Origin: Bdellovibrionota bacterium
Lineage (GTDB): Bacteria > Bdellovibrionota > UBA1018 > UBA923
Length of the DNA stretch: 21,703 nt
Assembly: GCA_040754655.1 (NCBI GenBank)
Contig: JBFMCE010000065.1
Coordinates: 1-21,703, forward strand
Reading direction: 5' to 3'
Below, one piece after another: positions 6,301 to 21,609 of this stretch. Numbering within the stretch: the stretch's first letter is position 1; every line of letters begins with the position of its first letter. The notes beneath the pieces were generated by a model that saw only the letters and a program-made list of their open reading frames with translations, made no database searches and was not told the origin of the DNA. Position numbers and translations under genes: made by a program.

Positions 6301-9300
6301 GGATCACCTACGTTGTCACTTTCGGACTCTGTTCTATAGTTCATCCCGAAACCGTCCGTGTATTCACGAATTAAACGCGTGACAGGCGTAGAGCCGTTTA
6401 GTCCTACGGCCATCGTACGCTCTCGGCGTTGGGTAAAAGGATTGCCTTGATTCAAATAGGCGTACGTCTCAAATCCTCCATTGGGGAAATCGATTCGTGA
6501 CTCTCTCCCCATATGGTCATATTGAGTCGTTGTTTGAGCGCCATTTTGATCTGTGACGCGCCAAGTTCTGCCGGCAAAGTCATGGTCATAAGTCGTTGTG
6601 AGCTCACGAAGCCCCCCGGAATAACCTCCTTGGGTTACTCGCTTAGTGCTCGTTGCCAGGTAAGTCCTAAAATCGGTATCATAAGTGGTGCTGGTTACTC
6701 TGTCGAGCGCGTCGGTGACGTTGAGCTGATTGCCATAAAGGTCGAGCTGCCTGTTCTTCTCAGTGCGCACCCATCTTGTGTTGGGTGACGAGCAAACACC
6801 GGCGTTATCGCAAAAACAGTTGGTCGCATCTTTGCACAAGACCTTATCTACATGTTCGATATAACGGTTCTGCGGTTCGTAGATATACTTCTCCCAAGCA
6901 AGGATCAGGTTGTTTGAAGTATGCTTGAGCCTGGTGCCCGTCACTCTATGTAAGTTCCAGTTGGTCGCATCGTTCTCGTAAGAGGTGGTGGTCTCTATAC
7001 AATGTGTGCCGACGCAGGAGACGTCACTGATCACTCCGCCATAAGAATCATAATTGTAGTCAGACTGGTGGGTGGCAAGAAGTGTCGAGTTTTCGTAGGT
7101 TCTTTTCGTGGTTCCAGTTTTTCGGATAAACTTCACGCCTGGAATGGTTTGAATTTGATCGAAGTAAACCCAGTTCTTTTCCACCAGGTACTCGTCACCG
7201 TTATAAATCTCTTGCTCGGCAAGAAGCCCCTGAAAAGGCCGGTGCAGATAGTAGTTAGAGATATCAGAGGTGTTGGTCTGCTGGTCTACGGCAGTAAAAT
7301 ACTCAAAGCCGAGATCCGACCTCTCAAGCATCGGCCCATAATTGTATCGGCCGTTATCATAAGTGTATTCCGAGCCATGAGTCGTGCTGTGCCCGTTGAA
7401 GAGCGCCATGGTCTTGGTTAATAGCCTGTAGCTTGAATTAACCCCGCCGCAGTCTTCATTTTGCCTTAACTGCGCAGAACAACCGGCATTGCCAGGGGTG
7501 ATGGCTCCTAGCATTTTTGATGCGTGTTCATACGATACCGTCACGCTTCCACCGAGGCTGTTTAAAGAGCTGGTAATGACATCGGGTTTAGCGCTATTGG
7601 AATAAGCGATCTTTATCGGGTGGTAGTTCGTTGGGTTTGCGCCGTTGATCATGACTACTTCTGAGATGCCGTCACCATTGATGTCGCCAGTTTTCACTCC
7701 CACAAAATGGGAATAGAGATTGGTACCAAAGCAATAGACGCAATTAGACTCTGAAGGGGCGCTTCCGTCAGTGAGCGCCGTAAGCGGCCCAAGACCGGTT
7801 TCCGTACCTAAGGCATAGTGAAGGATCACTCCCGGAGAGGCATTGCCTCTGAATGCCGAGATCAAATCGGCTCTACCGTCGCCATTGATATCGGCCATCG
7901 TATGATTGAAGAGATTTGTTCCCTCAGGGCCGTCGACAGTGCCGGTGCTGCTATTGGTGTGTACGACAAAAATTGTGGTCGCGCCTTTGGTCGAGCCAAG
8001 CATGGTTTGAATCTTAGTGCCTGCATGGCCCCTATAAACAGAGACGACGTCTTCAGCGCCATCTCCATTGATATCAGCCATCAGGTTATTCCACGTCGCT
8101 GTACGAATTGATTGCGAGTGGGGTACAGACTCATTTGTGGCGGTTGCATTGAAGGGCACATTAGGATCCGCGATCACAGTATGGGTTTGGCCAAAGAGAT
8201 CGGAATTGGTCGTTCCAGGCGCCCCACCAAACATATTCATGACATTGGTGACATCAGGAACGAACATCGTGTTCGAGATTAAGCTTCCATTCCAGGCGGT
8301 GGCTACATGATAGCCGCGATGCATGACATACACGTCTGACTTTTGATCGCCATTCGTGTCGCCTACAACTAGCTGCACCGGGTGAAGGGCGTGGTTCAAC
8401 ATTCCGGTGTCTCGAAAGACGACGTTTGTAGAAAGTCCTTGGTCGGTTCCAGGAAGATAGTCGAAATTCAGCCGGCCATTGCTGCCACTGTTGTAACCAA
8501 CGGCTAAGTCAGCCCGGCCATCGCCATTGAAGTCGCCTACAAAAGCCCCCCTGATTTGACGGGTATAATTGGCAGCCAGGCCCATCGATGGCGCTTGCAC
8601 GAAAGAGCCGAAGTTCGTACCAAGCGACATTAGGTAATAGGTGAGGCGCAACTCAGAATGATAAAAAACAAGATCTGTTTTTTGATCGGCGTTGATGTCG
8701 GTCGGAAGCACTTGCCACATGGGTGTATTTGTATACCAGTTCCAGTTGGCTGTTAAGGCGGGCCCGTTTTGAAGTGAGCCTAAACCGTTCGAGTTGCCTA
8801 GGCAAAACTTCACGTTAAAACCGTTGTTTGCGGAGAAAACCAGGATCAGGTCTTTAATTCCGTCTGCATTGATATCACCCAAGTGAGAAGAGTAATACTG
8901 CATCGGCCCCATGTTATTGCCGTGCGTGGCCGGGTGAGTGACTACTGATCCGAGTTTGCCGTTCGTTCCCGAAAGGGCATACTGAATTTTTCGGCCGCCT
9001 AGGCCTTGGAACGCGCCGACTAAGTCATCCTTGCCGTCGCCGTTGATGTCGCCTAAATGATATCCGTCTATTCTGATCAAGTCGTCGAAATCGAGCCCGG
9101 AGTCTTCTAATGCGCCGATTGCACCGGAAGACGTATCCCAAGTAAATGTTTGCGCTGGCGGCGCGACGCTCTCCGAATCGTTTGATCCGATCGTTTGAAT
9201 CGAAGCCAGTTGAGTTTTTTGACTGACAGGGCTCTGAACATAGACAAACTTATAGCGACGGACCAGCAAACCCTTTGATTTAACCCTGATGTTCAAGAGA

Positions 9301-10172
9301 CGGTTCTTATAATTCTCTGGAACTGGTGTCGCATCGCTTCTGGTCTGATACTCGAATTCCACGGTACGCAGTGAGGCGAACGTTGTGGTGGTGTGCTTGG
9401 TGTAAGTGATGACTTGCGGAAGCACATCGCCATTGTAGTTGGCATAGGTGATATCGAAATAGTTTCCAAACTTGTCGACAACCTTATAAAGGTGCCAGCG
9501 GTAAATGCCGCGAGCAAAGGCGGTTCCAAAGTTCGTCTCCCAGGTAGCTGGGTACTGTGTTTGACCGCCCAACCCTGAGTGGTGAGAAGCGTCTCCGCCG
9601 AAGTAATACGTGTTTCCCGAACCATCGCGCATTTCCCAATAACAAGGCCCGTTGTTGCATTGGCCATGTGCGATGAAACGTTTCCAAGATTCGGTAGCCG
9701 TGCGATAGGTATTTCCGCCTTGGACTTCGCTTACGAAGCGCTCGCTTGGATTCGCAAGGCCTGAGCCATTGGAATTGAATGCAAAAGAATCTGCTGATGT
9801 GTAACGAACGCCGTTCCCGATGTTTACACGATCAATGGAGGGCAAGCCTGCCAAGTGAAAGCCCATGCCCAAAAGCCCACTGCCACTTTGCGAATCATAC
9901 TGAACAGAAAGATTGGGTTGCACCCCTTTTCGTCCGGCTGGCACATCAATGGGCAATGAATAAGCGAATGACCCGCGCGGGGTGACGGTGAAAGTGCCGC
10001 CAGGCGATTGAAGCTCTTTTGCAGTAGCTCCTTTGATCAGCGGGTCTGAGAGGATGTCTCCAGAGCTCGGGGCCGCCGCCGCAGTGATTTCGTTGTTCCC
10101 TTCTTGGGAATAAACAAGCGCAGAAGTCAGGCAACCTACGAACAAAACAAATGCGATCGATCGAAATCTCAT
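3387..10172 (-). CDS. Secreted RHS/YD-repeat polymorphic toxin with SpvB-like N-terminus and FG-GAP/VCBS repeats (TcB-TcC-like fusion)
   Basis: N-terminal signal peptide ([22 protein letters not shown]). SpvB-like '[35 protein letters not shown]'. Eight DxNxD(G/Q) repeats and many YD repeats. RHS core '[27 protein letters not shown]...[12 protein letters not shown]' followed by a ~281-aa C-terminal region. GAGGA RBS at 10179-10183. Confidence 0.93.
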   Translation of the reverse strand: [2261 protein letters not shown]

Positions 10173-11199: not shown

Positions 11200-11248
11200 A
11201 ACGATCTTTGAAACAAAATCAGATTCCAGAGACGACGACCTCTGGCCG

Positions 11249-11282
11249 CCAGCCCGTTAACTCAACGGACTGGGGTTTATTT
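11249..11282 (+). terminator. Rho-independent terminator-like hairpin after tpm
   Basis: CCAG-C-CCGTT/AACTC/AACGG-A-CTGG followed by GGTTTATTT. A second hairpin CCAGAG/CTCTGG lies at 11226-11245. Confidence 0.55.
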
Positions 11283-11290
11283 ACTTATAA

Positions 11291-11382
11291 AATTGGCTCA
11301 GGGGGAAGGTGAGTCGATCCACCACCCTAAACTCCTGACGTTGAGATGGAATTCGGTTTTATAAACCAATCAGAGAACTGAT
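11291..11382 (+). repeat. Left copy of a 92-bp imperfect inverted repeat flanking the sulfur cassette
   Basis: Aligns without gaps to the reverse complement of 15780-15871 at 64/92 positions. The first 12 nt (AATTGGCTCAGG) are identical. Confidence 0.85.
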
Positions 11383-11703
11383 TTGCGATACATTGGGGTA
11401 CTGAGCAATCTGAGCCTGATATCTGTCGCTGCACTTTTGCTCTTGGTCACCACTTCCTTTGCTGGAGACAAAGATAAGAAGTCAGAAGTCGACAATGATC
11501 TCAAAGCCCATATTGAGATGCACGAGAAAACGGCGAAAGCTCACGAACGGACCGCCGAGTGCCTAAAAGATGGCAAACCAGTCGACGAATGCCGCGCAGA
11601 ATTCAGAAAAGCCCGCCCGGGCGATGGCCAAGGTTGTGGAATGGGGATGGCTCCAGGACACGGCCGAGGCATGGGTAAAGGCAGAGGTAAGCGGACTCAA
11701 TAG
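11383..11703 (+). CDS. Small secreted hypothetical protein with a Cys pair and His/Met/Gly-rich segments
   Basis: Hydrophobic signal-like N-terminus ending 'TTSFA', helical 'HIEMHEKTAKAHERTAECLKDGKPVDECRAEF' and tail 'GCGMGMAPGHGRGMG'. The TTG start is uncertain. Confidence 0.7.
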   Translation: MRYIGVLSNLSLISVAALLLLVTTSFAGDKDKKSEVDNDLKAHIEMHEKTAKAHERTAECLKDGKPVDECRAEFRKARPGDGQGCGMGMAPGHGRGMGKGRGKRTQ

Positions 11704-11750
11704 ACCGGCAATCAAGCCTACTACTTAGTTTCATTCAATTTGCGCCACTC

Positions 11751-11785
11751 TTGACATATTAGTATTTTATAATATACTGATATGT
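11751..11785 (+). promoter_or_regulatory. Sigma70 promoter overlapped by a 32-bp palindromic operator upstream of the ArsR regulator
   Basis: TTGACA (11751-11756), 16-bp spacer, TATACT (11773-11778). Imperfect palindrome ACATATTAGTATTTTA/TAATATACTGATATGT at 11754-11785 (14/16 pairs). Confidence 0.8.
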
Positions 11786-12085
11786 ATGATAGACGAGCAA
11801 CTTGCGAAAAGAGCAGAAGAAGTAAGCGCGGTCCTAAAGCAACTGGCTCATCCAGATCGATTGAAAGTTTTGTGCGGCCTTTTAGAGAAAGAAAAAACGG
11901 TCTCTGAACTGGTCAATTATGCAAAATCTTCTCAATCCTGGGTGTCGCAGTTCCTTGCTCGAATGAAGCTTGAGGGCATGGTTGATTCGAGAAAAGAAGG
12001 AAACTTCGTCTACTATCGAATCGCTGACCCTAAGATCAAAGAACTGATGCGTGCGATTTATAAAACGTACTGTAAAAAGGAGTGA
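11786..12085 (+). CDS. ArsR/SmtB-family repressor of BigR/SqrR/YgaV type (persulfide sensor)
   Basis: 'LKQLAHPDRLKVLCGL...SQSWVSQFLARMKLEGMVDSRKEGNFVYYRI...IYKTYC'. Has a Cys in helix 2 and a C-terminal YC, the two-Cys signature of this subfamily. Heads a sulfur operon. Confidence 0.9.
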   Translation: MIDEQLAKRAEEVSAVLKQLAHPDRLKVLCGLLEKEKTVSELVNYAKSSQSWVSQFLARMKLEGMVDSRKEGNFVYYRIADPKIKELMRAIYKTYCKKE

Positions 12086-12088
12086 GTC

Positions 12089-12631
12089 ATGAGTGAAGTC
12101 ATTTTAGATGTCAGAGAAAGAGACGAGTTTGAGGCAGAGCACATTGAGGGCTCGATCAACATTCCGCTCTCTCACTTTATGTCGGTGGCTCCCGGTGTGC
12201 TAAATCAGCTTCGAGACAAGAATGTCACCGTCATGTGCCGAAGCGGTAATCGCGCAAAACTTGCTGCCGGCGATATTGCAAAAATGGGCTACGCCGACAA
12301 AGTGACTGCCATAGTCTTTGAAGGCGGCATTCTTGAATGGAAAAAACAGGGAAAACCAACTGTCGTAAAGCGCAAAGGGCATTTGCCGATCTTACGTCAG
12401 GTACAACTCATCGCAGGAGCCTTAGTCTTTACCAGCACAATGCTTGGTGCATTCATTAGCCCCTGGTTTCTTGCTGTCAGCGCGTTCGTTGGCGCGGGAT
12501 TAATGGTTGCCGGAAGCACTGGCTTCTGCGGAATGGCTCAACTTCTCGCGTTCATGCCTTGGAATAAAACCCTGCTAGAAACCAAAGAAGAGCTCTGTCA
12601 GGTCAGTCCTAAATCAGGATGCTGTGAGTAA
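12089..12631 (+). CDS. Rhodanese domain fused to a DUF2892 membrane domain (YgaP-like)
   Basis: 'ILDVRERDEFEAEHIEGSINIPL', active loop CRSGNR, then 'ILRQVQLIAG...FVGAGLMVAGSTGFCGMAQLLAFMPWN'. AAGGAG RBS. Confidence 0.9.
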   Translation: MSEVILDVRERDEFEAEHIEGSINIPLSHFMSVAPGVLNQLRDKNVTVMCRSGNRAKLAAGDIAKMGYADKVTAIVFEGGILEWKKQGKPTVVKRKGHLPILRQVQLIAGALVFTSTMLGAFISPWFLAVSAFVGAGLMVAGSTGFCGMAQLLAFMPWNKTLLETKEELCQVSPKSGCCE

Positions 12632-12642
12632 AGGAGAATTTT

Positions 12643-13374
12643 ATGAATACGATTGTAAAAGATATCAGAGAGATCATCAAAGATGACTCCACTCTTCCTA
12701 AAGGCTGGCAAGCCAAAGTCATCATTAACGACGACAATATGACTTATGTCGTATGGAACGAAAACACGAAAGAAGCGCTGATCGTCGATCCTATGCGTGA
12801 AGACTGGGAGACGCTTGTTTCGATCGCAATGAAGGACTTGAAGGAGTATCGCTTTCTCGCTGTGGTCGATACACACACCCACGCTGACCACATCTCGTGT
12901 GCTGCGAATTTGGCTAACGAACTTAAAGTTCCGCTCATTCAGCACGTGCTTAGCCCAAGCAAACGCATTCACTTGCGTGTGAGTCAAGACACAGCCTTGC
13001 CAACGGCGGCTGGCCCACTAAAGTTCTTAGTTACGCCAGGACACACCGCCGAGTGCATCACGCCAATCTGGGGCCCGTTTCTATTTGGAGGCGACATGCT
13101 TCTCTATGGCGATACAGGGCGCGATGATCTGCCAGGTGGTGATCCCGAAGCCCACTGGGAAAGCATTCAGAAGATCAAAACCCATGTCACTCCAGAGACG
13201 CTTGTTCTTCCTGGTCACGATGGCGAAGGCGGCAGAGCTTCAAGCTGGAAACACCAACTTGAAATCAGCCCGGGTTTAAAGCAAGACAAACCAACCTTCA
13301 TCAAAGACGCGGGTTCCTATGTTGGACCATCGCCAAGAATATTGAAGGAGTCGCTTTATGAAAACTTCAAATAG
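12643..13374 (+). CDS. MBL-fold persulfide dioxygenase (ETHE1/PDO-like)
   Basis: THTHADH, TPGHT, LFGGD, GRDDLPGGD, LPGHD and a PDO-like C-terminal 'PSPRILKESLYEN'. Rhodanese/TauE gene context. Confidence 0.85.
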   Translation: MNTIVKDIREIIKDDSTLPKGWQAKVIINDDNMTYVVWNENTKEALIVDPMREDWETLVSIAMKDLKEYRFLAVVDTHTHADHISCAANLANELKVPLIQHVLSPSKRIHLRVSQDTALPTAAGPLKFLVTPGHTAECITPIWGPFLFGGDMLLYGDTGRDDLPGGDPEAHWESIQKIKTHVTPETLVLPGHDGEGGRASSWKHQLEISPGLKQDKPTFIKDAGSYVGPSPRILKESLYENFK

Positions 13375-13693
13375 CTCTATCAACATCAACTCTCTTCACG
13401 GACGTGTGAAAGAGCTTGGGAAAAAAGAGGTTGTTCTCGACGTAAGGAGTCGCGAGGAATACATGGATGGCCATGTCCCAGGCTCGATCAATATTCCGCG
13501 TGATGAAGTCGCCCGATACGCAGCCAAGCTCAAGTCGTATGATAGAATCTACGTTCATTGTCAGGCCGGCAAGCGCGCCCAATTGGCGTTCGCAGACCTC
13601 GAGAAGCAAGGTCTCACCAATCTTGTATGCGTGACAGGTGGCGGAATGGCCGACTGGATAGAGGCTGGTTACGAAATCGACAAAGGAGCATGA
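13358..13693 (+). CDS. Single-domain rhodanese (sulfurtransferase)
   Basis: 'VLDVRSREEYMDGHVPGSINIP', active loop CQAGKR, 'GGMADWIEAGY'. AAGGAG RBS; 17-bp overlap with the upstream gene. Confidence 0.92.
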   Translation: MKTSNSSININSLHGRVKELGKKEVVLDVRSREEYMDGHVPGSINIPRDEVARYAAKLKSYDRIYVHCQAGKRAQLAFADLEKQGLTNLVCVTGGGMADWIEAGYEIDKGA

Positions 13694-13700
13694 AAAGCTC

Positions 13701-14471
13701 ATGATCGCTCTTGGATATTTTGGAGCTGCAGTGATGGGGGTGACCCTTGGCCTCCTTGGTGGTGGAGGGTCCATTTTAGCAGTACTCATCTTCGCTTACC
13801 TCTTCAATGTTTCAGCTACAGCAGCGACGTATTATTCGCTATTTATCGTGGGAGTTTGTTCCGCAATCGGTGTTATTCCTTTCGCTCAAAGAAGATTGGT
13901 TGAAGTCAAAACGGCGCTTTTGTTCTTTGTCCCAGCAGCTATAGGTGTTTTTTTCTCGAGACGAATTATCCTGCCAAGGCTTCCAGAAAACAAAGATATG
14001 ATCATATTGGTAGCTTTTGCCATCGTTATGCTTGCAGCTTCATGGTCGATGATTCGAAAGAAGGCACCCGCAAAAATTCATATGAAAAAGAACCACTTGG
14101 GGCGCATCACTTTAAACGGCGTTGGTGTCGGTATTGCCACCGGCTTTGTTGGTGCAGGAGGTGGCTTTCTCATCGTCCCTGCACTAGTAAATGGCATTGG
14201 CCTCTCCATGGAAAAAGCCGTTGGCACTTCGTTATTTATCATCGCACTCAATTCATTGTCAGGATTTACAGGCGATTTAATTGCAGGAATACCTGTTCAA
14301 TGGAACTTAGTGCTCCCATTTTTGTGTGTCGCGCTTGTTGGGATGGTGGCTGGAACTCACCTTAATCGTTTCGTATCGAGTATTAAGCTTAAGTCAATAT
14401 TCGGATGGTTTGTATTGACTCTTGGATCACTTATAATCATCAAGCAGTTCTTAGAACTAACTGACTTTTGA
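13701..14471 (+). CDS. TauE/SafE family sulfite exporter
   Basis: Duplicated motifs 'GLLGGGGSIL' and 'GFVGAGGGFLIVPAL...AVGTSLFII', with about 8 hydrophobic segments. Confidence 0.92.
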   Translation: MIALGYFGAAVMGVTLGLLGGGGSILAVLIFAYLFNVSATAATYYSLFIVGVCSAIGVIPFAQRRLVEVKTALLFFVPAAIGVFFSRRIILPRLPENKDMIILVAFAIVMLAASWSMIRKKAPAKIHMKKNHLGRITLNGVGVGIATGFVGAGGGFLIVPALVNGIGLSMEKAVGTSLFIIALNSLSGFTGDLIAGIPVQWNLVLPFLCVALVGMVAGTHLNRFVSSIKLKSIFGWFVLTLGSLIIIKQFLELTDF

Positions 14472-14485
14472 ACTAAGATTCAATA

Positions 14486-15718
14486 ATGAGCCATGCAAAT
14501 ACCGTTATCAGTTTAGGGCTTAAGGAAAACCTTCTACAGTTTTCGCTTTTGGTCATCGTCAATGCGTTCGTTGGCGCCATGATCGGTATGGAGCGAAGCA
14601 TACTGCCGGCCCTTGCTGAACAAGAGTTTCATCTTGCGGCAAAAGCTGGGATTCTTTCATTTATTGTTATTTTCGGGTTAACAAAGGCTTTCACAAATTA
14701 TTTTGCAGGCCGATTATCAGATAACCTTGGAAGAAAAGTCGTTCTAATCGCTGGTTGGATCGTTTCGATTCCCGTCCCCTTTTTGCTGATGTGGGCGCCA
14801 AGCTGGAATTGGATATTATTTGCTAACCTCTTGCTCGGAATCGGCCAGGGCCTGACCTGGTCTACGACGGTGATAATGAAAATCGATCTCGTGGGCTCGA
14901 AACAACGAGGTCTTGCCATGGGCCTAAACGAATTTGCGGGATACTTCGCTCTTTCGTTGTCTGCGTTAGCAACTGGTTATCTCGCAGATCACTTCGGCCT
15001 TCGACCGCAACCATTTTATCTCGGAGTGGGCTACGTTGCTTTTGGACTAGCGATAAGCCTGCTTCTTGTGCGTGAGACCGTCGGACATGTAAGGCACGAG
15101 TCGACCAAGTCAGCCCCAGAAACGACAAAACTAACCCACAGACAGATCTTTTTTAAAACATCTTTTCAAGATCGCGACCTGTCTTCAATCACTCAAGCAG
15201 GCCTTGTGAATAATTTGAACGACGGAATGGCTTGGGGTTTATTTCCGATGCTCTTTGCGGCTTCAGGGCTTGAATTAAAGAGCATTGGAATCCTTGCTGC
15301 TATTTACCCTGCGACATGGGGTTTGACCCAGCTTTGGACGGGGCATCTGTCAGATAGCTTTGGCAGAAAATGGATGATCGCATTCGGCATGTGGGTTCAA
15401 GCAATCGGAATTGCCATTACCGCTATTTCTACATCGATGTTAAGTTTTTCAATCGGCGCGGTTCTTTTGGGAATTGGGACTGCGATGGTTTATCCAACTC
15501 TGTTGGCAGCAATCGGTGACGTCACCCACCCGAGTTGGCGAGGCTCGGCTGTAGGCATCTATCGACTATGGCGGGACGCAGGTTATGCCTTTGGAGCTCT
15601 TATCGCAGGATTTACCGCTGATTATTTTGGCGCCACTACCGCTGTATGGCTAGTCGCAGCTATCACTACGCTGTCCGGTATTGTGGTTGCTCTGCGCATG
15701 AGAGAGACATTAAAATGA
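14486..15718 (+). CDS. MFS transporter
   Basis: About 12 hydrophobic segments. MFS motif A occurs twice ('GRLSDNLGRK', 'GHLSDSFGRK'). Confidence 0.92.
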   Translation: MSHANTVISLGLKENLLQFSLLVIVNAFVGAMIGMERSILPALAEQEFHLAAKAGILSFIVIFGLTKAFTNYFAGRLSDNLGRKVVLIAGWIVSIPVPFLLMWAPSWNWILFANLLLGIGQGLTWSTTVIMKIDLVGSKQRGLAMGLNEFAGYFALSLSALATGYLADHFGLRPQPFYLGVGYVAFGLAISLLLVRETVGHVRHESTKSAPETTKLTHRQIFFKTSFQDRDLSSITQAGLVNNLNDGMAWGLFPMLFAASGLELKSIGILAAIYPATWGLTQLWTGHLSDSFGRKWMIAFGMWVQAIGIAITAISTSMLSFSIGAVLLGIGTAMVYPTLLAAIGDVTHPSWRGSAVGIYRLWRDAGYAFGALIAGFTADYFGATTAVWLVAAITTLSGIVVALRMRETLK

Positions 15719-15779
15719 TAATTTTTGCTGCCCATCTCTAGCTACAAACAGGTCGTTTGAGTATCTCGGAGTATCGGTC

Positions 15780-15871
15780 ATCAGTTGCCTAACTGATTGA
15801 TACTATGAAATTCCGTTTTCATGTCAGGTGGTCGGTGTGTTGGATCGTAACGCCCTCCTCCTGAGCCAATT
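15780..15871 (-). repeat. Right copy of the 92-bp imperfect inverted repeat flanking the sulfur cassette
   Basis: Reverse complement AATTGGCTCAGGAGGAGGGCGTTACGATCCAACAC...AACTGAT aligns ungapped with 11291-11382 (64/92). Confidence 0.85.
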
Positions 15872-15876
15872 AAAAT

Positions 15877-15915
15877 AAAAACCCTCAGATTCAGTAATGA
15901 TTCTGGGGGTTTTTT
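15877..15915. terminator. Bidirectional Rho-independent terminator between the convergent MFS and USP genes
   Basis: AAAAACCCTCAGA-T-TCA/GTAA/TGA-T-TCTGGGGGTTTTTT, with an A-tract before and a T-tract after the stem. Confidence 0.8.
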
Positions 15916-16011
15916 GTTTTCAGAGTTTTATCAGATCAGTTTGTCCCAGCCTCTCCCAGCCGGTCAGAATTTTGCGCTTCGATTCGAGAAGATAAAGATC
16001 AAATCAAAACT

Positions 16012-16956
16012 TCACGACCGTAAAAACCAAACCGGACATGGAGCATCGCGCGCAACTCCACGCCCGATGCTGCCAAGCAAGGCCGCAGACGCCGCGCTCG
16101 ATTCAGATGCCATCGCAATCAATCCCGGTTTTTTCCTCCGAGCGTATTGCAGTATCGACCGAACCGCGCTGACGCTATCCGCGTCGAAAGCGGTATCAGC
16201 CGCTAGTCCTTTCTTTCTCGCCTCAGCAGCCCATCTCTCCGCCAACAGCTTCTGTCGCTCATAAGATTGTTTGATGTACCCCCGTGTCCAGACAACTCCA
16301 CCTGCAAGAAGGGCGGATCCCGATTGAACAAAGGGTTCAATGGGATTCAAAACGGCATGAAAGATCGTGATTTTCGCACCCAGTTTTTCCGCCAACTCTT
16401 GCACTTTTTCAAAAGTCTTCCTCGATTCTCTGGAAAAATCCGTTGGAAAGAGGATCTGATCCAGCTTTGAGACGCGTGTGGTCTTTGGCCCCGAAATCAA
16501 AACAGGGGTTTTGGAGTGAAGAGTCAAGGTTTCGGCGAAGCTTCCCAGCAGGGCTCGCTTCAACCCATGACGCCCATGAGAGTTCACGAGAATCAGATCG
16601 GCGTCTTTGCTCTTCGCATACCGATCAAGAGTTTCGGCAGCCGTCCCCATAGATGAAGGAGCCGAGACGAGAACCGTTGGCTTCGCCAGTCTAGAGAGAT
16701 TGCCTCTTTTTGCCAGTTGGTTCAATGCCTTCTCTGACGCTGGTTTGAACTGCCTCACGAGTTCCGACTTCGACACCGATAGGCTCAACAACCCATCGCT
16801 CAATACGTAAACGGGCTCAATGACCGCCTTCGTTCTCTTTGAAAGATCACGTAGCACATGAATACCTTGACTTTGGATCTGACTGTCTTCCAACGGATCA
16901 GCCGCCCAAATGATTCTTTGAAATGCTTTGCGCTTCACGCCAATATTGTGGTTCAT
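16012..16956 (-). CDS. Universal stress protein with tandem USP domains
   Basis: 'DADLILVNSHGRHGLKRALLGSFAETL...TPVL', 'ILFPTDFSRES', 'LLGSIGRGVARDAPCPVWFLR'. GAGGT RBS; starts 10 bp after the cytochrome gene. Confidence 0.93.
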   Translation of the reverse strand: MNHNIGVKRKAFQRIIWAADPLEDSQIQSQGIHVLRDLSKRTKAVIEPVYVLSDGLLSLSVSKSELVRQFKPASEKALNQLAKRGNLSRLAKPTVLVSAPSSMGTAAETLDRYAKSKDADLILVNSHGRHGLKRALLGSFAETLTLHSKTPVLISGPKTTRVSKLDQILFPTDFSRESRKTFEKVQELAEKLGAKITIFHAVLNPIEPFVQSGSALLAGGVVWTRGYIKQSYERQKLLAERWAAEARKKGLAADTAFDADSVSAVRSILQYARRKKPGLIAMASESSAASAALLGSIGRGVARDAPCPVWFLRS

Positions 16957-16966
16957 TGGTCACCTC

Positions 16967-18124
16967 TTACTGTGAGAGCTTTCTCAGCTCAGATAATTTT
17001 TTAATTTCATCCTCGGGGATGAAAGTTCCGCCGCTACCACTGTAACCAAAATACAACTTCGACGCGTACCGGTGATAACACCTCTTTGCGACGTCAGTGC
17101 GCGGGAACTCGCGGATGCAAGATTCAAAATAAAGGCTGTCGAGCGCCCATAAAAGAGGGTCTTGCAGGGAATCGTAACAAACTCCCAAGAGATAAAGTGC
17201 TTCTCCGCGAAACTTGCCTTTCGGATCTTTTTGAAGGGCCTCATGAATATAGTTGGTCGCGCGTAGGTAGCTTACGTCTCCAGCTGGATCGACGGGAAAC
17301 AACTGACGCTCTCCGGCTTGCGCGATCAAAGACCTCGCCTTCAACATCAGTTCAGCGGTCGTCATATTCTTTGGGCGCTTCTTTTCTTGCATCCATCTCT
17401 TCACATCTTTTTTCCATTCGGCGACATAGCGCTGGAAAAATTCCGGCAGATCTTTGCGGCTGGAAAGTTTTTCAAGCATATAGAAGGTGGTCTTCGCGTC
17501 TTGCTTTACTCGAATCGTGACGCTGAGGACCTCACGCACTGCGCGGCCTAATTCGATGTAGCCAACCTCTCCTGAGGGCGTGCGAGAGATGAATTTGTCG
17601 AATGCCCGGATTGCTTTGTCGAACTGCCGAGTCGCCGCATAGAATTCGGCTTTTTGAAACTCGGTAAGCGGCGACGAATCAACTTTGTTTTGAAGATCCA
17701 TGAAGCTCTGACCGGTGCTCACGCGTGTATGACAGCTCAGACAGAATCCCGTCATCGTTCGCACCTGATTCCTGACAAAAGAGCCATTGGCACCAGCCCT
17801 AAAGGATTTTTGGACGTCTTGAAGGTAGTCTGAAAAGAGGCCCGAAATAGCAGCCAACCCTGGTTCTTGATCCGCCATTTTCGTTGGGAAAACATGCTGG
17901 AGGCCCGACATCGAATCCAAGTTCTTCTGAATTTCCTCTCTATTCTTAGGATCAGAGAATGCCTTGGGATCTGCAACGTAAGGCTGCAGATTGATCAAAG
18001 CATCAAAGTTTTTCTTCATCGTGGCCTTGAGGTCTGCGGGCTCTTCAGCTCGAACACCACCCAAGGGTGTTACTAAACTCAAAAGGGCCAGACCCATAAA
18101 AATTGAAAGCGAGTAACGGCTCAT
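16967..18124 (-). CDS. Exported mono-heme c-type cytochrome with TPR-like helical C-terminal region
   Basis: Signal peptide ending 'GVRA', a single CxxCH (CLSCH), TPR-like 'KAEFYAATRQFDKAIRAFDKF' and 'GEALYLLGVCYDSL'. GAGGG RBS. Confidence 0.8.
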   Translation of the reverse strand: MSRYSLSIFMGLALLSLVTPLGGVRAEEPADLKATMKKNFDALINLQPYVADPKAFSDPKNREEIQKNLDSMSGLQHVFPTKMADQEPGLAAISGLFSDYLQDVQKSFRAGANGSFVRNQVRTMTGFCLSCHTRVSTGQSFMDLQNKVDSSPLTEFQKAEFYAATRQFDKAIRAFDKFISRTPSGEVGYIELGRAVREVLSVTIRVKQDAKTTFYMLEKLSSRKDLPEFFQRYVAEWKKDVKRWMQEKKRPKNMTTAELMLKARSLIAQAGERQLFPVDPAGDVSYLRATNYIHEALQKDPKGKFRGEALYLLGVCYDSLQDPLLWALDSLYFESCIREFPRTDVAKRCYHRYASKLYFGYSGSGGTFIPEDEIKKLSELRKLSQ

Positions 18125-18164
18125 AGCTTATTCCCTCTTTTCTGGTATGCTCGAAAAATACGTA

Positions 18165-18182
18165 TTGCAGCGGCCATGCCAA
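18165..18182 (-). promoter_or_regulatory. Sigma54 (-24/-12) promoter for the cytochrome c-usp unit
   Basis: Minus strand TTGGCATGGCCGCTGCAA has GG-N10-GC spacing and matches TGGCAC-N5-TTGC closely. Confidence 0.7.
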
Positions 18183-18211
18183 ACTTTCGCAGCACATTCA
18201 GATGCTTACAA

Positions 18212-18237
18212 GCCTCATTTTGGGACGGAATGTCCCA
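18212..18237. promoter_or_regulatory. Candidate upstream activator site shared by the divergent sigma54 promoters
   Basis: GCCTCA-TTT-TGGGAC-GGAAT-GTCCCA, containing a perfect 6-5-6 palindrome at 18221-18237. The 11-mer CGGAATGTCCC recurs at 21666-21676. Confidence 0.55.
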
Positions 18238-18308
18238 GTGCATCCTAAGCAAGGGTTTTTTTTGCTCACTCCAGCCCCCAACGAGCCTCAGCTGCACAGA
18301 AATTTCAC

Positions 18309-18326
18309 TTGGCCCGGTGGTTGCAA
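18309..18326 (+). promoter_or_regulatory. Sigma54 (-24/-12) promoter for the GPHGG protein-DUF1275 unit
   Basis: TTGGCCCGGTGGTTGCAA with GG at 18311-12, N10, and GC at 18323-24. Confidence 0.65.
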
Positions 18327-18337
18327 CCTTGTTCTTC

Positions 18338-18736
18338 ATGAAAAAAATAACGCTATTTCTTTTGATATGCGCAACTCAGGCAATTCATGCTGAGGAAACT
18401 CCTGGCCCGCATGGCGGCCATATCGTTCGAAGCGAGGCGCATCAGTTTGAAGTAAAGATCGATCCAGACGCAAAGAACATCGAGGTTTACACTCTCAACA
18501 AGCAAAGACCGGCGCCAAAGACCATGACCATCACTTTGTTTCGCGAATCTGGCACTGGCCAAACCATCGTTCTAGAAGCCGTGAACCTCAAAGATCCCCT
18601 TCCAAGATACCAAGGTGAGCTTTCCTTAGCTTCTGGCCCATACGTGGGAGCCGAACTTCGCTTTGAAATCAGCGTAAAGTCATTTAAAATTCTGAAGTTC
18701 ATGCCATATATTCCGAATCGTGGAGGCCGATTTTAA
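18338..18736 (+). CDS. Secreted hypothetical protein with a GPHGGH motif (possible metal-binding)
   Basis: Start reassigned from 18176 to ATG 18338, giving signal peptide MKKITLFLLICATQAIHA followed by 'EETPGPHGGHIVRSEAHQFEV' and a beta-rich body. Confidence 0.8.
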   Translation: MKKITLFLLICATQAIHAEETPGPHGGHIVRSEAHQFEVKIDPDAKNIEVYTLNKQRPAPKTMTITLFRESGTGQTIVLEAVNLKDPLPRYQGELSLASGPYVGAELRFEISVKSFKILKFMPYIPNRGGRF

Positions 18737-18741
18737 CGCTG

Positions 18742-19479
18742 ATGTTTCACCATAGTTTGGATGACGAAGTTGAGAAGCGAATTTTCGTAAAGTGGTATCT
18801 GCTGGCGTTCTTAGCAGGAAACGTGAACGCTGGTGGATTTTTGGCCGCAGGAAAATTCGTTTCGCACATTACAGGCTTTGCGACGCTTTTCGGCGTTGGT
18901 GTGGCGGATGGGCACTATGATCAAGCCGCCGGTATCCTCGCCGTTCCCGCTTTCTTTCTCGCCGGTGTGATGATTTCAGCGTTTCTCATCGATCATCGTT
19001 TTCATAAGGGGCTTCGCCCTCACTACGATTGGGTAATGCTCCTTCAATCTATTTCGCTCATTCTTGCTGCAGTACTCGGGCACTATCATTTCTTCGGAAT
19101 TTTCGGAGATGCACAGCACTTAAAAGAAAACTTCGTTCTCTTATCGCTGTTATGCCTCGCATGCGGATTACAGAATGGAGCCATTACCACTGCAACTGGT
19201 GCATCCGTGCGCACGACACATCTTACGGGGCTCACAACTGACCTGGGTATTGGGCTAATTCGAGTCTGGGGAATGCCACACTCTGGAAAAGATTTTCGTC
19301 AGGAAGTTCGGTCAAACTGGCTTCGAATAGGCACAATTATGTCATTCGCGATGGGATCAGTGGCCGGCGCTGCCTTATTCGTTCGCTTTCACTACCTAGG
19401 CTTTCTACTGCCAGCGGCCATCGCCCTGTACGCGATGACTCAAGGACGGAAACATTTGGTCCATCCCCACACAGGATGA
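18742..19479 (+). CDS. YoaK/DUF1275 family membrane protein
   Basis: 'LAFLAGNVNAGGFL...FVSHITG' and 'CGLQNGAIT...VRTTHLTGLTTDLGI', with multiple TM segments. Confidence 0.92.
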   Translation: MFHHSLDDEVEKRIFVKWYLLAFLAGNVNAGGFLAAGKFVSHITGFATLFGVGVADGHYDQAAGILAVPAFFLAGVMISAFLIDHRFHKGLRPHYDWVMLLQSISLILAAVLGHYHFFGIFGDAQHLKENFVLLSLLCLACGLQNGAITTATGASVRTTHLTGLTTDLGIGLIRVWGMPHSGKDFRQEVRSNWLRIGTIMSFAMGSVAGAALFVRFHYLGFLLPAAIALYAMTQGRKHLVHPHTG

Positions 19480-19484
19480 AAAAT

Positions 19485-19536
19485 GAACCGCGAGGCAATG
19501 CTCAACTCGATTTCGAGGAACACCGCCTTGCGGTTC
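19485..19536. terminator. Long stem-loop between the convergent DUF1275 and CBS genes
   Basis: GAACCGCGAGGC pairs with GCCTTGCGGTTC (12 bp, one G-T), with an inner CTCGA/TCGAG. The T-tract is weak (TCTTT). Confidence 0.55.
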
Positions 19537-19556
19537 TCTTTGCGTCCATCAGGCCG

Positions 19557-19985
19557 TCAACAGTGCTGTTGCACTGTTGAATTGCTCTTGTAGTGGCTGC
19601 GGAGCGTCTCACCTAAAATCCTGAGGGCGTCGTTGTCGGTAAGAATACCAACGACTTTTCCATTAGGTTGCGCGACGATGGCGCAGCCATATTTGTGTTC
19701 GGCCATATTGAGCACCACTTCATCGAGCTCGGATTCGGGGCGAACAACGTAGGGGTCGGGGGTCATCACGTCGTCCACCGTTAATTCGCCTGGCCCCTGG
19801 AAAGAACGGGCAAGCTTTATGTCACGATCAGAAATCACTCCGACAAGTTCTCCGCCTCTTTGTACGGGAAGATGACGAATGCGAAACTCTCGCATCAATT
19901 CCATCGCCTTCTTAATCGAAATATCAGCACCAATCGTGTGCGGCATCATAGTCATTACTTTTTGAATCTTTGGCATTGCTTTCAT
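19557..19985 (-). CDS. CBS-pair domain protein
   Basis: Start reassigned to ATG 19985 (GGAGG RBS at 19990-19994). 'IRHLPVQRGGELVGVISDRD', 'VDDVMTPDP', 'KVVGILTDND'. Confidence 0.92.
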   Translation of the reverse strand: MKAMPKIQKVMTMMPHTIGADISIKKAMELMREFRIRHLPVQRGGELVGVISDRDIKLARSFQGPGELTVDDVMTPDPYVVRPESELDEVVLNMAEHKYGCAIVAQPNGKVVGILTDNDALRILGETLRSHYKSNSTVQQHC

Positions 19986-20069
19986 AGAACCTCCATTGTG
20001 AGGGGCGACGCCCGCCCATGCAGATAATTTTTCCCCTGTTTCCGCGTCAATAACCGCTGGAAGATAATA

Positions 20070-20087
20070 TTGCAGCGTGCGTGCCAA
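20070..20087 (-). promoter_or_regulatory. Sigma54 (-24/-12) promoter for the CBS gene
   Basis: Minus strand TTGGCACGCACGCTGCAA, near-consensus GG-N10-GC. Lies inside the 3' intergenic region of the RNase gene. Confidence 0.78.
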
Positions 20088-20163
20088 CACGCTTCTAGCT
20101 TGGAAGACCGCACGAATCCTAAATTCTTGAGACAAATTTGCTCTAAATAGCGGCATTTCTGTC

Positions 20164-21558
20164 TCAGTCCTCAAAATGACCCTTCGCTCTGCTGCGAACC
20201 AATTCTTTTGCCTCAAACTGCGCAGGGATCTCTGCGATCCAGCCCAACGAATCACGAATTCTCACGCGAAGCGCATCTGCGCCTTGAGGCTCGCCATGCA
20301 CGATGAATGTTTTTTGTGGAACTCGTCGAAATCCCTTCAGCCAAGAGATGATTTCGGATTGATCAGCATGCGCCGAAAGCGACGAAATTTCTTCAATCCG
20401 AGCCTTCACGGGCACATATTGACCGAACATCTTGAGCTCAGAAATCCCGTCCCGAAGCAGGCGCCCACGCGTACTTGCCGCTTGGTATCCAACAAGCACG
20501 ACGGTGTTTCTTGCGTCCGGAAGACGTTTCTCTAAATGAAGAAGAACGCGCCCGCCAGTGAGCATTCCGCTTCCCGCAATAATGATAGTGCTGTTCTTGG
20601 CACGTGACAGTTCTTCAGACTGCTGGTGGTTCCGGACCATCGTCACATTTTGGCAAAGTTCTTCGACCTCCTTGGAACTCAATGTGTGCCATTGTGAATG
20701 ACCTAAGAAAACTTCGGTTGCATTGATTCCCATCGGACTGTCTAAAAAAACAGGAATGTCCGGAATGCGTTTGCTACGCTTGAGCTTGCTAATGAGGAAG
20801 AGTACATCTTGCGCTCTGCCGACCGCGAAACTGGGAATAATGACATGCCCTTTGCGCGCAATGGTTTCGTTGATGATTCGTTCAAGTTGATGCAGAGGCG
20901 TTTCTGAGGAATGGACACGGTCTCCATAAGTTGATTCAATGACGAGATAGTCGGCTGAGGTAATTCTCGTCGGTGGCGGCAACATTAACGGCGAGCGTCG
21001 TCCAAGATCGCCGCTAAAAACGATCTTCTTCTCGTTGTATTTCAGCTCAATGAATGCTGACCCGAGAATATGACCGCTCGGGGAAAAACGAACTTTTAGG
21101 CCTTTTGAAAGGCGAATCCATTTATTGATCTCTATTGGAGCGAAAAGCTTAAGTGACGCTTTCACTTCTTCTTTGGTATAAAGAGGTTCCGCCGGATGGT
21201 GTTTTGAATAACCCATCTTGTTTGCACGGTCGGCGTCTTCCTCCTGAATGTTCGCGCTATCTACTAAGATGATTTTAGCGAGTTCTTTCGTTGGCCCTGT
21301 GCAATAGATTTTTCCTTTAAACCCATTCCGAACGAGCAGGGGCAAATAGCCCGAGTGATCCAAGTGAGCGTGCGTAAGAAGAACGGCATCGATCGTTGCT
21401 GAATCAACTGGCAATTTTTCGCGATTCTGAAGACGCAACTCTTTAAGCCCTTGAAATAGGCCACAGTCTATAAGTAGTTTTTCATTTTCCGTTTCAAATA
21501 AAAACTTTGAACCCGTCACAGTACCGACTCCGCCTAAGAATTGAAGTGTTGGGGCCAT
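20164..21558 (-). CDS. MBL-fold beta-CASP ribonuclease (YSH1/CPSF3-like bacterial RNase)
   Basis: Start at ATG 21558 (GGAGAGGAG RBS). 'FLGGVGTVTGS', 'DCGLFQG', THAHLDH, GHILGS, SGDLG, IESTYG, 'PSFAVGRAQ', 'GSGMLTGGR', SAHAD, VHGEP. Confidence 0.94.
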   Translation of the reverse strand: MAPTLQFLGGVGTVTGSKFLFETENEKLLIDCGLFQGLKELRLQNREKLPVDSATIDAVLLTHAHLDHSGYLPLLVRNGFKGKIYCTGPTKELAKIILVDSANIQEEDADRANKMGYSKHHPAEPLYTKEEVKASLKLFAPIEINKWIRLSKGLKVRFSPSGHILGSAFIELKYNEKKIVFSGDLGRRSPLMLPPPTRITSADYLVIESTYGDRVHSSETPLHQLERIINETIARKGHVIIPSFAVGRAQDVLFLISKLKRSKRIPDIPVFLDSPMGINATEVFLGHSQWHTLSSKEVEELCQNVTMVRNHQQSEELSRAKNSTIIIAGSGMLTGGRVLLHLEKRLPDARNTVVLVGYQAASTRGRLLRDGISELKMFGQYVPVKARIEEISSLSAHADQSEIISWLKGFRRVPQKTFIVHGEPQGADALRVRIRDSLGWIAEIPAQFEAKELVRSRAKGHFED

Positions 21559-21592
21559 AGTTCTCCTCTCCCTGTATGCATGACTATATTGC

Positions 21593-21609
21593 TGCAACCA
21601 GCAGGCCAG
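21593..21609 (-). promoter_or_regulatory. Sigma54 (-24/-12) promoter for the beta-CASP RNase
   Basis: Minus strand CTGGCCTGCTGGTTGCA with GG at 21607-06, N10, and GC at 21595-94. Confidence 0.65.

What the first reader, a model, noticed from the sequence alone, without database searches (positions are those of the whole stretch)
11291..15871. Persulfide-detox operon packaged between 92-bp ungapped inverted repeats with no recombinase
Seen: 11291-11382 aligns without gaps to the reverse complement of 15780-15871 at 64/92 nt by hand count, with the outer 12 nt identical. The repeats enclose seven co-oriented genes forming a self-regulated unit, and a terminator lies just outside each repeat. 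The outermost AATT is palindromic, so it could be part of the IR or a 4-bp target duplication around ends GGCTCAGG (11295) and CCTGAGCC (15867). Established: IS inverted repeats are typically much shorter, and these ends do not begin with the TGT of Tn7/Mu or the GGGG of Tn3. Inference: a non-autonomous mobile or invertible cassette acted on in trans, or two members of a dispersed structured repeat family marking accessory-module junctions. I do not recognise the family.
Basis: partly seen in the sequence, partly recalled or inferred. Interest (0 to 1): 0.82.

Follow-up and report, generated by a model that had tools for sequence, protein, structure and literature searches.

The report
Inverted scars of tRNA-targeting islands
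The two inverted repeats each end in a copy of the tail of the host's asparagine tRNA gene and match the ends of integrase-carrying islands in related bacteria, so they are likely leftover insertion scars that a later rearrangement turned to face each other, not the ends of a new mobile cassette.

Summary
The repeat is real: 64/92, against at most 47 in shuffles. It is not a new element end. The right copy ends in the exact last 16 nt of this genome's only tRNA-Asn, and the left copy matches 14/16. Inward lies a ~130-bp arm with two IHF-like sites; outward lies a terminator. Related genomes carry the same arm next to tyrosine integrases that face tRNA genes, in same-strand tandem arrays. A third full copy and an arm fragment flank a broken integrase on contig C119.

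The two copies are no closer to each other (61/89) than to sites in other genomes (62/89). They differ at 2 of 7 bases in the inferred crossover segment. Fourteen loci with homologous operon genes lack the arm. Codon GC skew flips at the left copy, where arm sequence has replaced a gene start, so a one-off rearrangement there is likely; no reads were available to exclude misassembly.

Side result: part of the arm resembles, and co-varies with, each element's own excisionase coding sequence. The scan noted comparable scars and sites inside excisionase genes on other DNA before (unchecked notes).

The parts
11247..11275 (-). Terminator-like hairpin outside the left copy; the T-run expected on the - strand is missing (a T-rich tail follows on +)
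   Evidence: sequence
11294..11309 (-). Left core: tRNA-Asn 3' end at 14/16; both mismatches fall in the inferred 7-bp crossover segment
11310..11417 (-). Left P-type arm: IHF-like sites at 11328-11340 and 11360-11372 (2 mismatches each), decayed repeat block 11384-11417, no outer arm repeats seen
11383..11703 (+). 106-aa predicted secreted Cys/Met-rich protein; the first ~10 codons are arm sequence, so the native start was likely replaced
   Evidence: no Pfam or NCBIfam match
11751..11778 (+). Sigma-70-like promoter (11/12) ahead of the ArsR gene, inside the enclosed segment
11786..15718 (+). Cargo operon: ArsR/BigR-like regulator, rhodanese-YgaP, metallo-beta-lactamase fold (persulfide dioxygenase-like by context), rhodanese, TauE, MFS transporter
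   Evidence: the persulfide role is inferred from the domain set
15724..15733 (+). One surviving outer arm-type repeat, identical to the doublets at both ends of the complete element on G068:C168
15740..15776 (+). Conserved ~10-bp-period repeat block (candidate excisionase array) that resembles the 5' coding region of the family's xis gene
15790..15834 (.). Two oppositely oriented IHF-like sites: 15790-15802 (perfect consensus on -) and 15822-15834 (2 mismatches on +)
   Evidence: consensus recalled
15853..15868 (+). Right core: exact last 16 nt of the genome's only tRNA-Asn(GTT), G000:C92 c7191-7265
15872..15998 (+). P'-type arm of the next element: terminator hairpin (15872-15920) and 10-bp-spaced direct repeats (15944-15961); 15849-15998 is 97% identical to C119 6173-6322, where a broken integrase follows

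Best explanation
The repeats each consist of a conserved arm, a copy of the tRNA-Asn 3' end and a terminator, as at the ends of tyrosine-integrase islands in related genomes, and are likely dead attachment-site junctions that a one-off rearrangement turned to face each other. Shown: the tRNA tail, the arm, its link to integrases that face tRNA genes in relatives, same-strand tandem arrays in relatives, and a skew change at the left copy. Inferred: islands inserted one after another at tRNA-Asn, and each left 'P arm + displaced tRNA tail + next arm'. The right copy is the end of an island whose last cargo was the sulfur operon. The left copy is the end of a different island. An inversion with deletion (or an equivalent illegitimate join) broke just inside the left arm at about 11418, fused it to a gene that lost its start, and reversed the operon-plus-usp block relative to the tpm side. 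The shared length and lack of gaps would reflect the fixed spacing that an integrase-IHF-excisionase complex needs, not pairing of the two copies. Identity as att scars about 0.9; inversion as the cause of the orientation about 0.6.
For: 16/16 and 14/16 match to the only tRNA-Asn among 42 tRNAs listed. Further copies flank a PF00589 pseudogene that is 52% identical to the tRNA-Asn integrase of G005. Of 21 integrase loci in relatives, 11 have a whole tRNA and 6 a tRNA tail directly behind the gene, facing it; 4 show neither, mostly at contig ends. IHF consensus with at most 1 mismatch at two fixed positions in 17 and 13 of 28 arms, against shuffles with max 3 and 2. The same arm carries Arg, Ser and Asp tails elsewhere. 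In 5 of 5 other contigs with several arm matches, neighbours within 100 kb are co-oriented. R-L identity is 61/89, against 62/89 for each to sites in other genomes. Three sites keep exactly CCCTCCT in register and then diverge, and a fourth does so one base off, which places the crossover where L differs twice. Third-position GC skew is +0.20 left, -0.10 in the operon and -0.08 right; the best split falls after tpm, reached by 88 of 5000 gene permutations.
Against: No intact cognate integrase was found in this 90%-complete genome. The tRNA gene, C65 and C119 are on separate contigs with no end overlaps, so the array order is not shown. The predicted skew change on C119 is not significant (p 0.65). 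Recently acquired genes can keep a donor's skew. The breakpoint lies at the outer arm end, not at a core, so it is not a clean integrase product. L's exact core variant was in no other of 301 genomes sampled; G001, outside that sample, has a tRNA-Asn that shares one of the two changes.
Confidence: 0.8

Rival explanations
1. Same scars, different history: a second island inserted in the opposite orientation at a secondary site (or the left scar arrived inside cargo from another host), and was then deleted down to a ~170-bp fragment. No inversion is needed.
For: Secondary-site junctions are common in this family: several arms join unrelated DNA right after the 7-bp segment, and two integrase-side ends have unrelated DNA before the tail. 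L's core differs from the host tRNA, and G001's tRNA-Asn shares one change. L looks cut at both ends.
Against: L keeps a whole tRNA tail plus hairpin, which a secondary-site right end would not. The skew differs over whole blocks on either side of L, not just a small insert. Secondary-type junctions in relatives are still co-oriented.
Confidence: 0.2
2. The contig is a chimera joined at about 11418, so the inverted pair does not exist in the cell.
For: Metagenome-type assembly in 196 contigs. A gene start is lost and skew flips at one point. No other genome examined shows such a pair.
Against: The junction region is unique in the assembly: whole-window BLAST finds repeats only at 15781-15819, 15849-15998 and a weak dbpA hit, so there is no repeat there to mis-join. 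C119 shows a second opposed arrangement with 5'-truncated genes back to back. dbpA and operon genes share one contig in G009, and tpm and operon genes share one in G005.
Confidence: 0.07
3. One reading: the pair bounds a non-autonomous cassette that a recombinase elsewhere inverts or moves. The right site (arm-core-arm, attP-like) would recombine with the left core used as attB.
For: 12 identical outer bases. The right site is nearly complete, with a perfect IHF site. The family tolerates mismatched secondary sites. Integrase-driven inversion between attP and a secondary site is reported for lambda (PMC6379469, passage) and for an archaeal integrase (PMC5495485, abstract). The operon is horizontally mobile: closest homologues are 81% identical in another family, against at most 60% in its own.
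Against: 2 of 7 mismatches in the inferred crossover segment. The copies are not a co-evolved pair. 0 of 14 loci with homologous operon genes carry the arm (several are short contigs). No intact cognate integrase in the genome. Promoter and genes lie inside the segment, so flipping would not switch them. No match in plasmid, phage or viral collections.
Confidence: 0.05

Closest known systems
tDNA-targeting genomic islands with tyrosine integrases, junction ('J') site class and tandem arrays (Islander, PMC4383910; parts 1-2 of 3 read)
   Same: Displaced 3' tRNA fragment marks the island end. Identity starts right after the T loop. PF00589 integrase and tandem arrays at one tRNA occur in relatives.
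   Different: Here only scars remain, with no intact integrase. Two fragments face each other, an orientation that Islander rejects as a false-positive class.
Lambda-type attR/attP architecture: arm sites, RDF array, IHF sites, core (phage 186 Apl, PMC7498355; KplE1 IntS/TorI, PMC2951348; passages read)
   Same: Outer direct repeats shared with the opposite arm, a ~10-bp-period block, two IHF-like sites and a core at fixed spacing. An HTH_17 gene lies directly upstream of the integrase.
   Different: Binding is not tested. The integrase faces the tRNA, with xis upstream. The second copy of the array lies inside the xis coding sequence, not at a promoter as for Apl, TorI or RdfS (PMC11963761, passages).
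Doubled motifs at fixed distance from the attP centre in helper-embedded PICIs (PMC10111431, passage)
   Same: A tandem doubled motif precisely placed upstream of the crossover, of unknown ligand.
   Different: Different sequence and host group; those satellites target prophage late genes, not tRNAs.
IS/MITE terminal inverted repeats and invertible switches such as fimS, Hin or shufflons (recalled)
   Same: Two related sequences in inverted orientation around genes.
   Different: No target duplication, no transposase or invertase, non-identical cores, and the ends belong to a family that is normally in direct orientation.

Membership tests
att junction (attR or tandem junction) of tRNA-targeting tyrosine-integrase elements | Displaced 3' fragment of a host tRNA gene | tested here: met
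   16/16 right, 14/16 left against tRNA-Asn C92
att junction (attR or tandem junction) of tRNA-targeting tyrosine-integrase elements | Same end occurs on elements with a tyrosine integrase next to a whole tRNA | tested here: met
   G114:C72, G053:C145 and others; broken copy on C119
att junction (attR or tandem junction) of tRNA-targeting tyrosine-integrase elements | Arm-type repeats shared between both ends of an element | tested here: met
   Doublet at both ends of G068:C168; one copy at window 15724. Not seen for the left copy.
att junction (attR or tandem junction) of tRNA-targeting tyrosine-integrase elements | Host-factor (IHF) sites at fixed distance from the core | tested here: met
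   17 and 13 of 28 arms against shuffles max 3 and 2; sequence match only
att junction (attR or tandem junction) of tRNA-targeting tyrosine-integrase elements | Binding and recombination by Int, IHF and Xis | not testable with these tools
   needs biochemistry
Intact genomic island (Islander rule) | Integrase gene within the island | tested here: not met
   none in the window; only a broken one on C119
Intact genomic island (Islander rule) | Fragment downstream of and co-oriented with its tRNA within 200 kb | tested here: inconclusive
   tRNA is on another contig with no overlap; L and R cannot both satisfy it
IS/MITE or non-autonomous transposon | Target-site duplication | tested here: not met
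   AATT also follows tRNA-Asn genes and att sites in relatives
IS/MITE or non-autonomous transposon | Ends form a matched pair that recurs around other cargo or a transposase | tested here: not met
   ISfinder and TnCentral could not be searched
Invertible DNA switch | Identical crossover cores in inverted orientation | tested here: not met
   CCTTCCC against CCCTCCT in the inferred segment
Invertible DNA switch | Both orientations present in reads | not testable with these tools
   no run was listed

The most novel reading that the evidence does not exclude
In this family of island ends, the ~35-bp repeat block of the arm (window 15740-15776) is an excisionase-binding array with a second, co-evolving copy written into the first helix codons of the element's own excisionase gene. 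The protein would then sit on its own coding sequence and throttle the xis-int operon, while the same array at the far end licenses excision. Another integrase class seems to do this with a different stretch of its xis gene. The window's inverted pair would be two fossils of that system. (That the pair itself is a working invertible cassette is not excluded but is only about 0.05.)
Probability: 0.45. Interest if true: 0.5.

Novelty: new member of a known kind. Interest (0 to 1): 0.27.

Why it matters
As flagged, it matters little. It shows that long, gap-free 'inverted repeats with no recombinase' can be two tRNA-island scars brought face to face, which is a trap for element finders. It does map a family of tRNA-targeting integrative elements in this class of predatory-type bacteria that four searches on tRNA islands did not show described. 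The family has a readable att architecture and switches between Asn, Arg, Ser, Asp and Gln tRNAs. The side result, an arm array echoed inside the excisionase gene, would give a directly testable form of intragenic autoregulation of excision.

Tried and rejected
Rfam: 7 weak matches, none at gathering score.
Repeat finder: did not list this pair among its 25 longest.
Sequencing runs: none was listed, so no read test was run.
Plasmid and phage BLAST and viral pattern scan: no match.
Genome-collection pattern scan: 11 loci, 6 confirmed by the arm profile, 5 not.
Metagenome pattern scan: 10 loci, 5 confirmed. No confirmed locus of either scan held an opposed second full site; the weak opposed hits beside integrase genes were the xis gene.
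Contig-end overlaps of C65, C119 and C92: only 15-nt chance hits.
Skew test on C119 and C92: uninformative.
Host for L's core variant: none among the other 300 of 301 genomes.
tpm or dbpA as the conserved downstream neighbour of tRNA-Asn: not seen.
Antisense model for the arm block: no G-U bias (11 against 12).
Extra synonymous conservation of the block in xis: not significant (p 0.13).
Blind BLAST of xis DNA against whole genomes: hit an arm in 1 of 4 searches (yes; no, cognate ends may be unassembled). None of 18 xis queries retrieved the window's own arms at E up to 10.
Target duplication and minihelix readings: rejected as above.
The primary paper on tRNA sublocations (Williams 2002) was not obtained; the site classes are taken from the Islander table footnote.
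Full report
OBSERVATION. The window is the whole contig C65 of a 3.78-Mb, 196-contig assembly. The two stretches align without gaps at 64/92, with 12 identical outer bases. The next best ungapped match in the genome is 46/92, and shuffles of the intergenic DNA reach at most 47 in 300 trials. Seven co-oriented ORFs lie between them: a 106-aa protein with no family match, an ArsR/BigR-like regulator, rhodanese-YgaP, a metallo-beta-lactamase fold, rhodanese, TauE and an MFS transporter. Hairpins lie outside both copies.

WHAT THE REPEATS ARE. The outer 16 bases of the right copy (15853-15868, +) are the last 16 bases, CCA included, of the only tRNA-Asn among 42 tRNAs that ARAGORN lists (C92). The left copy (11294-11309, -) matches 14/16. 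Contig C119 holds a third full copy (6303, -) and a 39-bp arm fragment (5092-5130, +). Between them lies a broken tyrosine integrase (PF00589) that is 52% identical to the integrase facing tRNA-Asn in G005. C119 6173-6322 is 97% identical to window 15849-15998.

THE FAMILY IN RELATIVES. A sequence-only model built from 12 such ends matched 42 of 127 genomes of the class. Many weak matches are only the tRNA itself, and 10 of the 12 training ends come from or lie in these relatives or C119, so they match by construction. An intact family integrase was found in 17 of 127 genomes but not in this one. At the 21 loci returned, 11 have a whole tRNA (Asn, Ser, Arg, Asp, Gln) directly behind the integrase and facing it, 6 have a tRNA tail there, and 4 show neither. 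A small gene directly upstream is HTH_17 in the one case scanned. Record titles place the confirmed sites in Oligoflexia/Bdellovibrionota-type genomes.

ANATOMY. From the inside out, the right copy has: one outer repeat (15724-15733), present as a doublet at both ends of the complete element on G068:C168; a ~10-bp-period block (15740-15776); two opposed IHF-like sites (15790-15802 perfect; 15822-15834); the core; a terminator; and a second pair of direct repeats (15944-15961) where the next element's arm begins. The IHF consensus (recalled) is met with at most one mismatch in 17 and 13 of 28 arms at the two positions, against shuffle maxima of 3 and 2. Three sites in relatives keep exactly the first 7 core bases in register and then run into unrelated DNA, and a fourth does so one base off. 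I infer from this that the crossover segment is these 7 bases, which fits the T-stem/acceptor junction class in the Islander table (PMC4383910, parts 1-2 of 3 read). The layout matches lambda-type att arms as described for phage 186 and KplE1 (PMC7498355 and PMC2951348, passages). No binding was tested.

NOT A MATCHED PAIR. R and L share 61/89 bases. R shares 62/89 with sites in G008 and G114, and L shares 62/89 with G008. L differs from R at 2 of the 7 crossover bases. None of 14 loci with homologous operon genes carries the arm (10; several contigs are under 10 kb). The operon is nonetheless mobile cargo: its MBL gene is 81% identical to copies in another family and at most 60% to copies in its own. 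AATT follows tRNA-Asn genes and att sites in relatives too, so it is not a target duplication.

WHY INVERTED. In relatives the sites form same-strand arrays. In 5 of 5 other contigs with several model matches, neighbours within 100 kb are co-oriented; one weak opposed match lies 585 kb away. With the bare 16-mer, 7 of 8 multi-hit contigs are co-oriented, and the eighth has two one-mismatch hits 183 kb apart that I did not examine. The window is therefore an exception. Two signs put a breakpoint at the inner end of L. First, the first ~10 codons of the 106-aa ORF are arm sequence, while 12 homologues shown start with their own Met and signal peptide. Second, third-position GC skew on the + strand is +0.20 for alkA-tpm, -0.10 for the operon and -0.08 for usp onward (left against operon p 3e-11 by codon counts, which overstate; operon against right p 0.72). 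The best split falls after tpm, reached by 88 of 5000 gene-order permutations. Skew tracks strand in this genome (68 of 84 contigs agree). So the operon is not flipped relative to the usp side; the join is on the left. On C119 a helicase fragment and the integrase fragment, both lacking their 5' parts, meet back to back near 5480. Flipping one segment between these two points would make all four sites co-oriented. That needs C65 and C119 to be neighbours, which is not shown: there are no end overlaps, the C119 skew test is flat, and the only support is gene co-occurrence in G006 and G009. Integrase-driven inversions at secondary sites have precedent (PMC6379469, passage; PMC5495485, abstract), but this breakpoint is not at a core. 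Misassembly cannot be excluded because no run was listed.

SIDE RESULT. The arm block resembles the 5' coding region of the family's xis gene. In an 18 x 32 matrix many scores reach 40-60, against a shuffled maximum of 36. The window's right arm scores up to 40; the left arm scores at most 30, which is chance level. For 9 xis-arm pairs assigned by contig position (6) or by shared genome and tRNA or arm repeat (3), cognate pairs score higher than permuted ones: 12 of 362,880 permutations, 12 of 40,320 without G005, and 12 of 5,040 also without G071. One pair (G050) scored at chance. I left out xis genes with no position-defined arm and one without a clean frame. I saw the pattern by eye in these same sequences first, and the elements are related, so the numbers overstate. 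One blind whole-genome BLAST put an arm on top; three did not, and none of 18 xis queries retrieved the window's arms. There is no G-U bias and no significant synonymous constraint. A protein site is the more likely reading, since RDFs bind 10-11-bp direct repeats at att and similar arrays at promoters (PMC7498355; RdfS, PMC11963761, passages). Three searches listed no paper on such an array inside xis itself; I saw listings only, most subscription papers are not held, and no supplements were read. Unchecked notes of this scan report like cases on other DNA.

VERDICT. A real repeat, ordinary in kind: two decayed att junctions of tRNA-Asn islands in an unusual orientation, likely from a single rearrangement. 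It works like lambda-type attR/attP ends and passes the sequence tests for such junctions. It fails the tests for an intact island, a transposon end or a DNA switch. Interest 0.27, most of it for the arm-xis echo.

Noticed in passing
window 15740-15776; L122, L129, L139, L126, L127, L135 (xis genes): The arm block matches and co-varies with the cognate xis coding sequence; the G005-type arm matches a different part of its xis.
   Followed up: partly
5' part of the xis genes at the integrase loci among L122-L142: Nearly all carry CTTTGA(A/C)AA just before the HTH, which resembles the boxA antitermination consensus (recalled); a possible Nus-factor control of xis-int.
   Followed up: no
L001 (G000:C119) 5092-6440: Arm fragment, helicase C-terminal fragment, broken integrase and a third att copy; next come parA and a 514-aa ORF, oriented oppositely to their homologues beside an arm in G005.
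   Followed up: partly
window 3387-10172 (-): 2261-aa protein with SpvB, FG-GAP and RHS repeats (a YD-repeat, toxin-complex-like architecture), followed by a small unannotated gap before tpm.
   Followed up: no
window 16012-21597: Usp, TPR/cytochrome-like, DUF1275, CBS and beta-CASP cluster; homologues of two of these genes lie 3-6 kb downstream of tRNA-Asn in G006.
   Followed up: partly
G000:C92 100-7190: Downstream of the intact tRNA-Asn: an HTH gene of the xis type (6555-6704), a methylase-nuclease-like pair and IS21-like genes (labels by eye), but no integrase.
   Followed up: no
L110-L112 (G050:C35, G114:C72): Arrays of up to five co-oriented arms, several joined to unrelated DNA right after the 7-bp segment, suggesting frequent secondary-site deletions.
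   Followed up: partly
window 11383-11703; L091-L109: Family of small predicted secreted proteins with H/C/M-rich motifs in 24 of 127 genomes, with no Pfam or NCBIfam match; possibly metal-binding.
   Followed up: partly
L011 (G009:C360) 183-1589: An IS3-like transposase frame (label by eye) runs into the antisense strand of tRNA-Asn between the tRNA and its 3' fragment.
   Followed up: no
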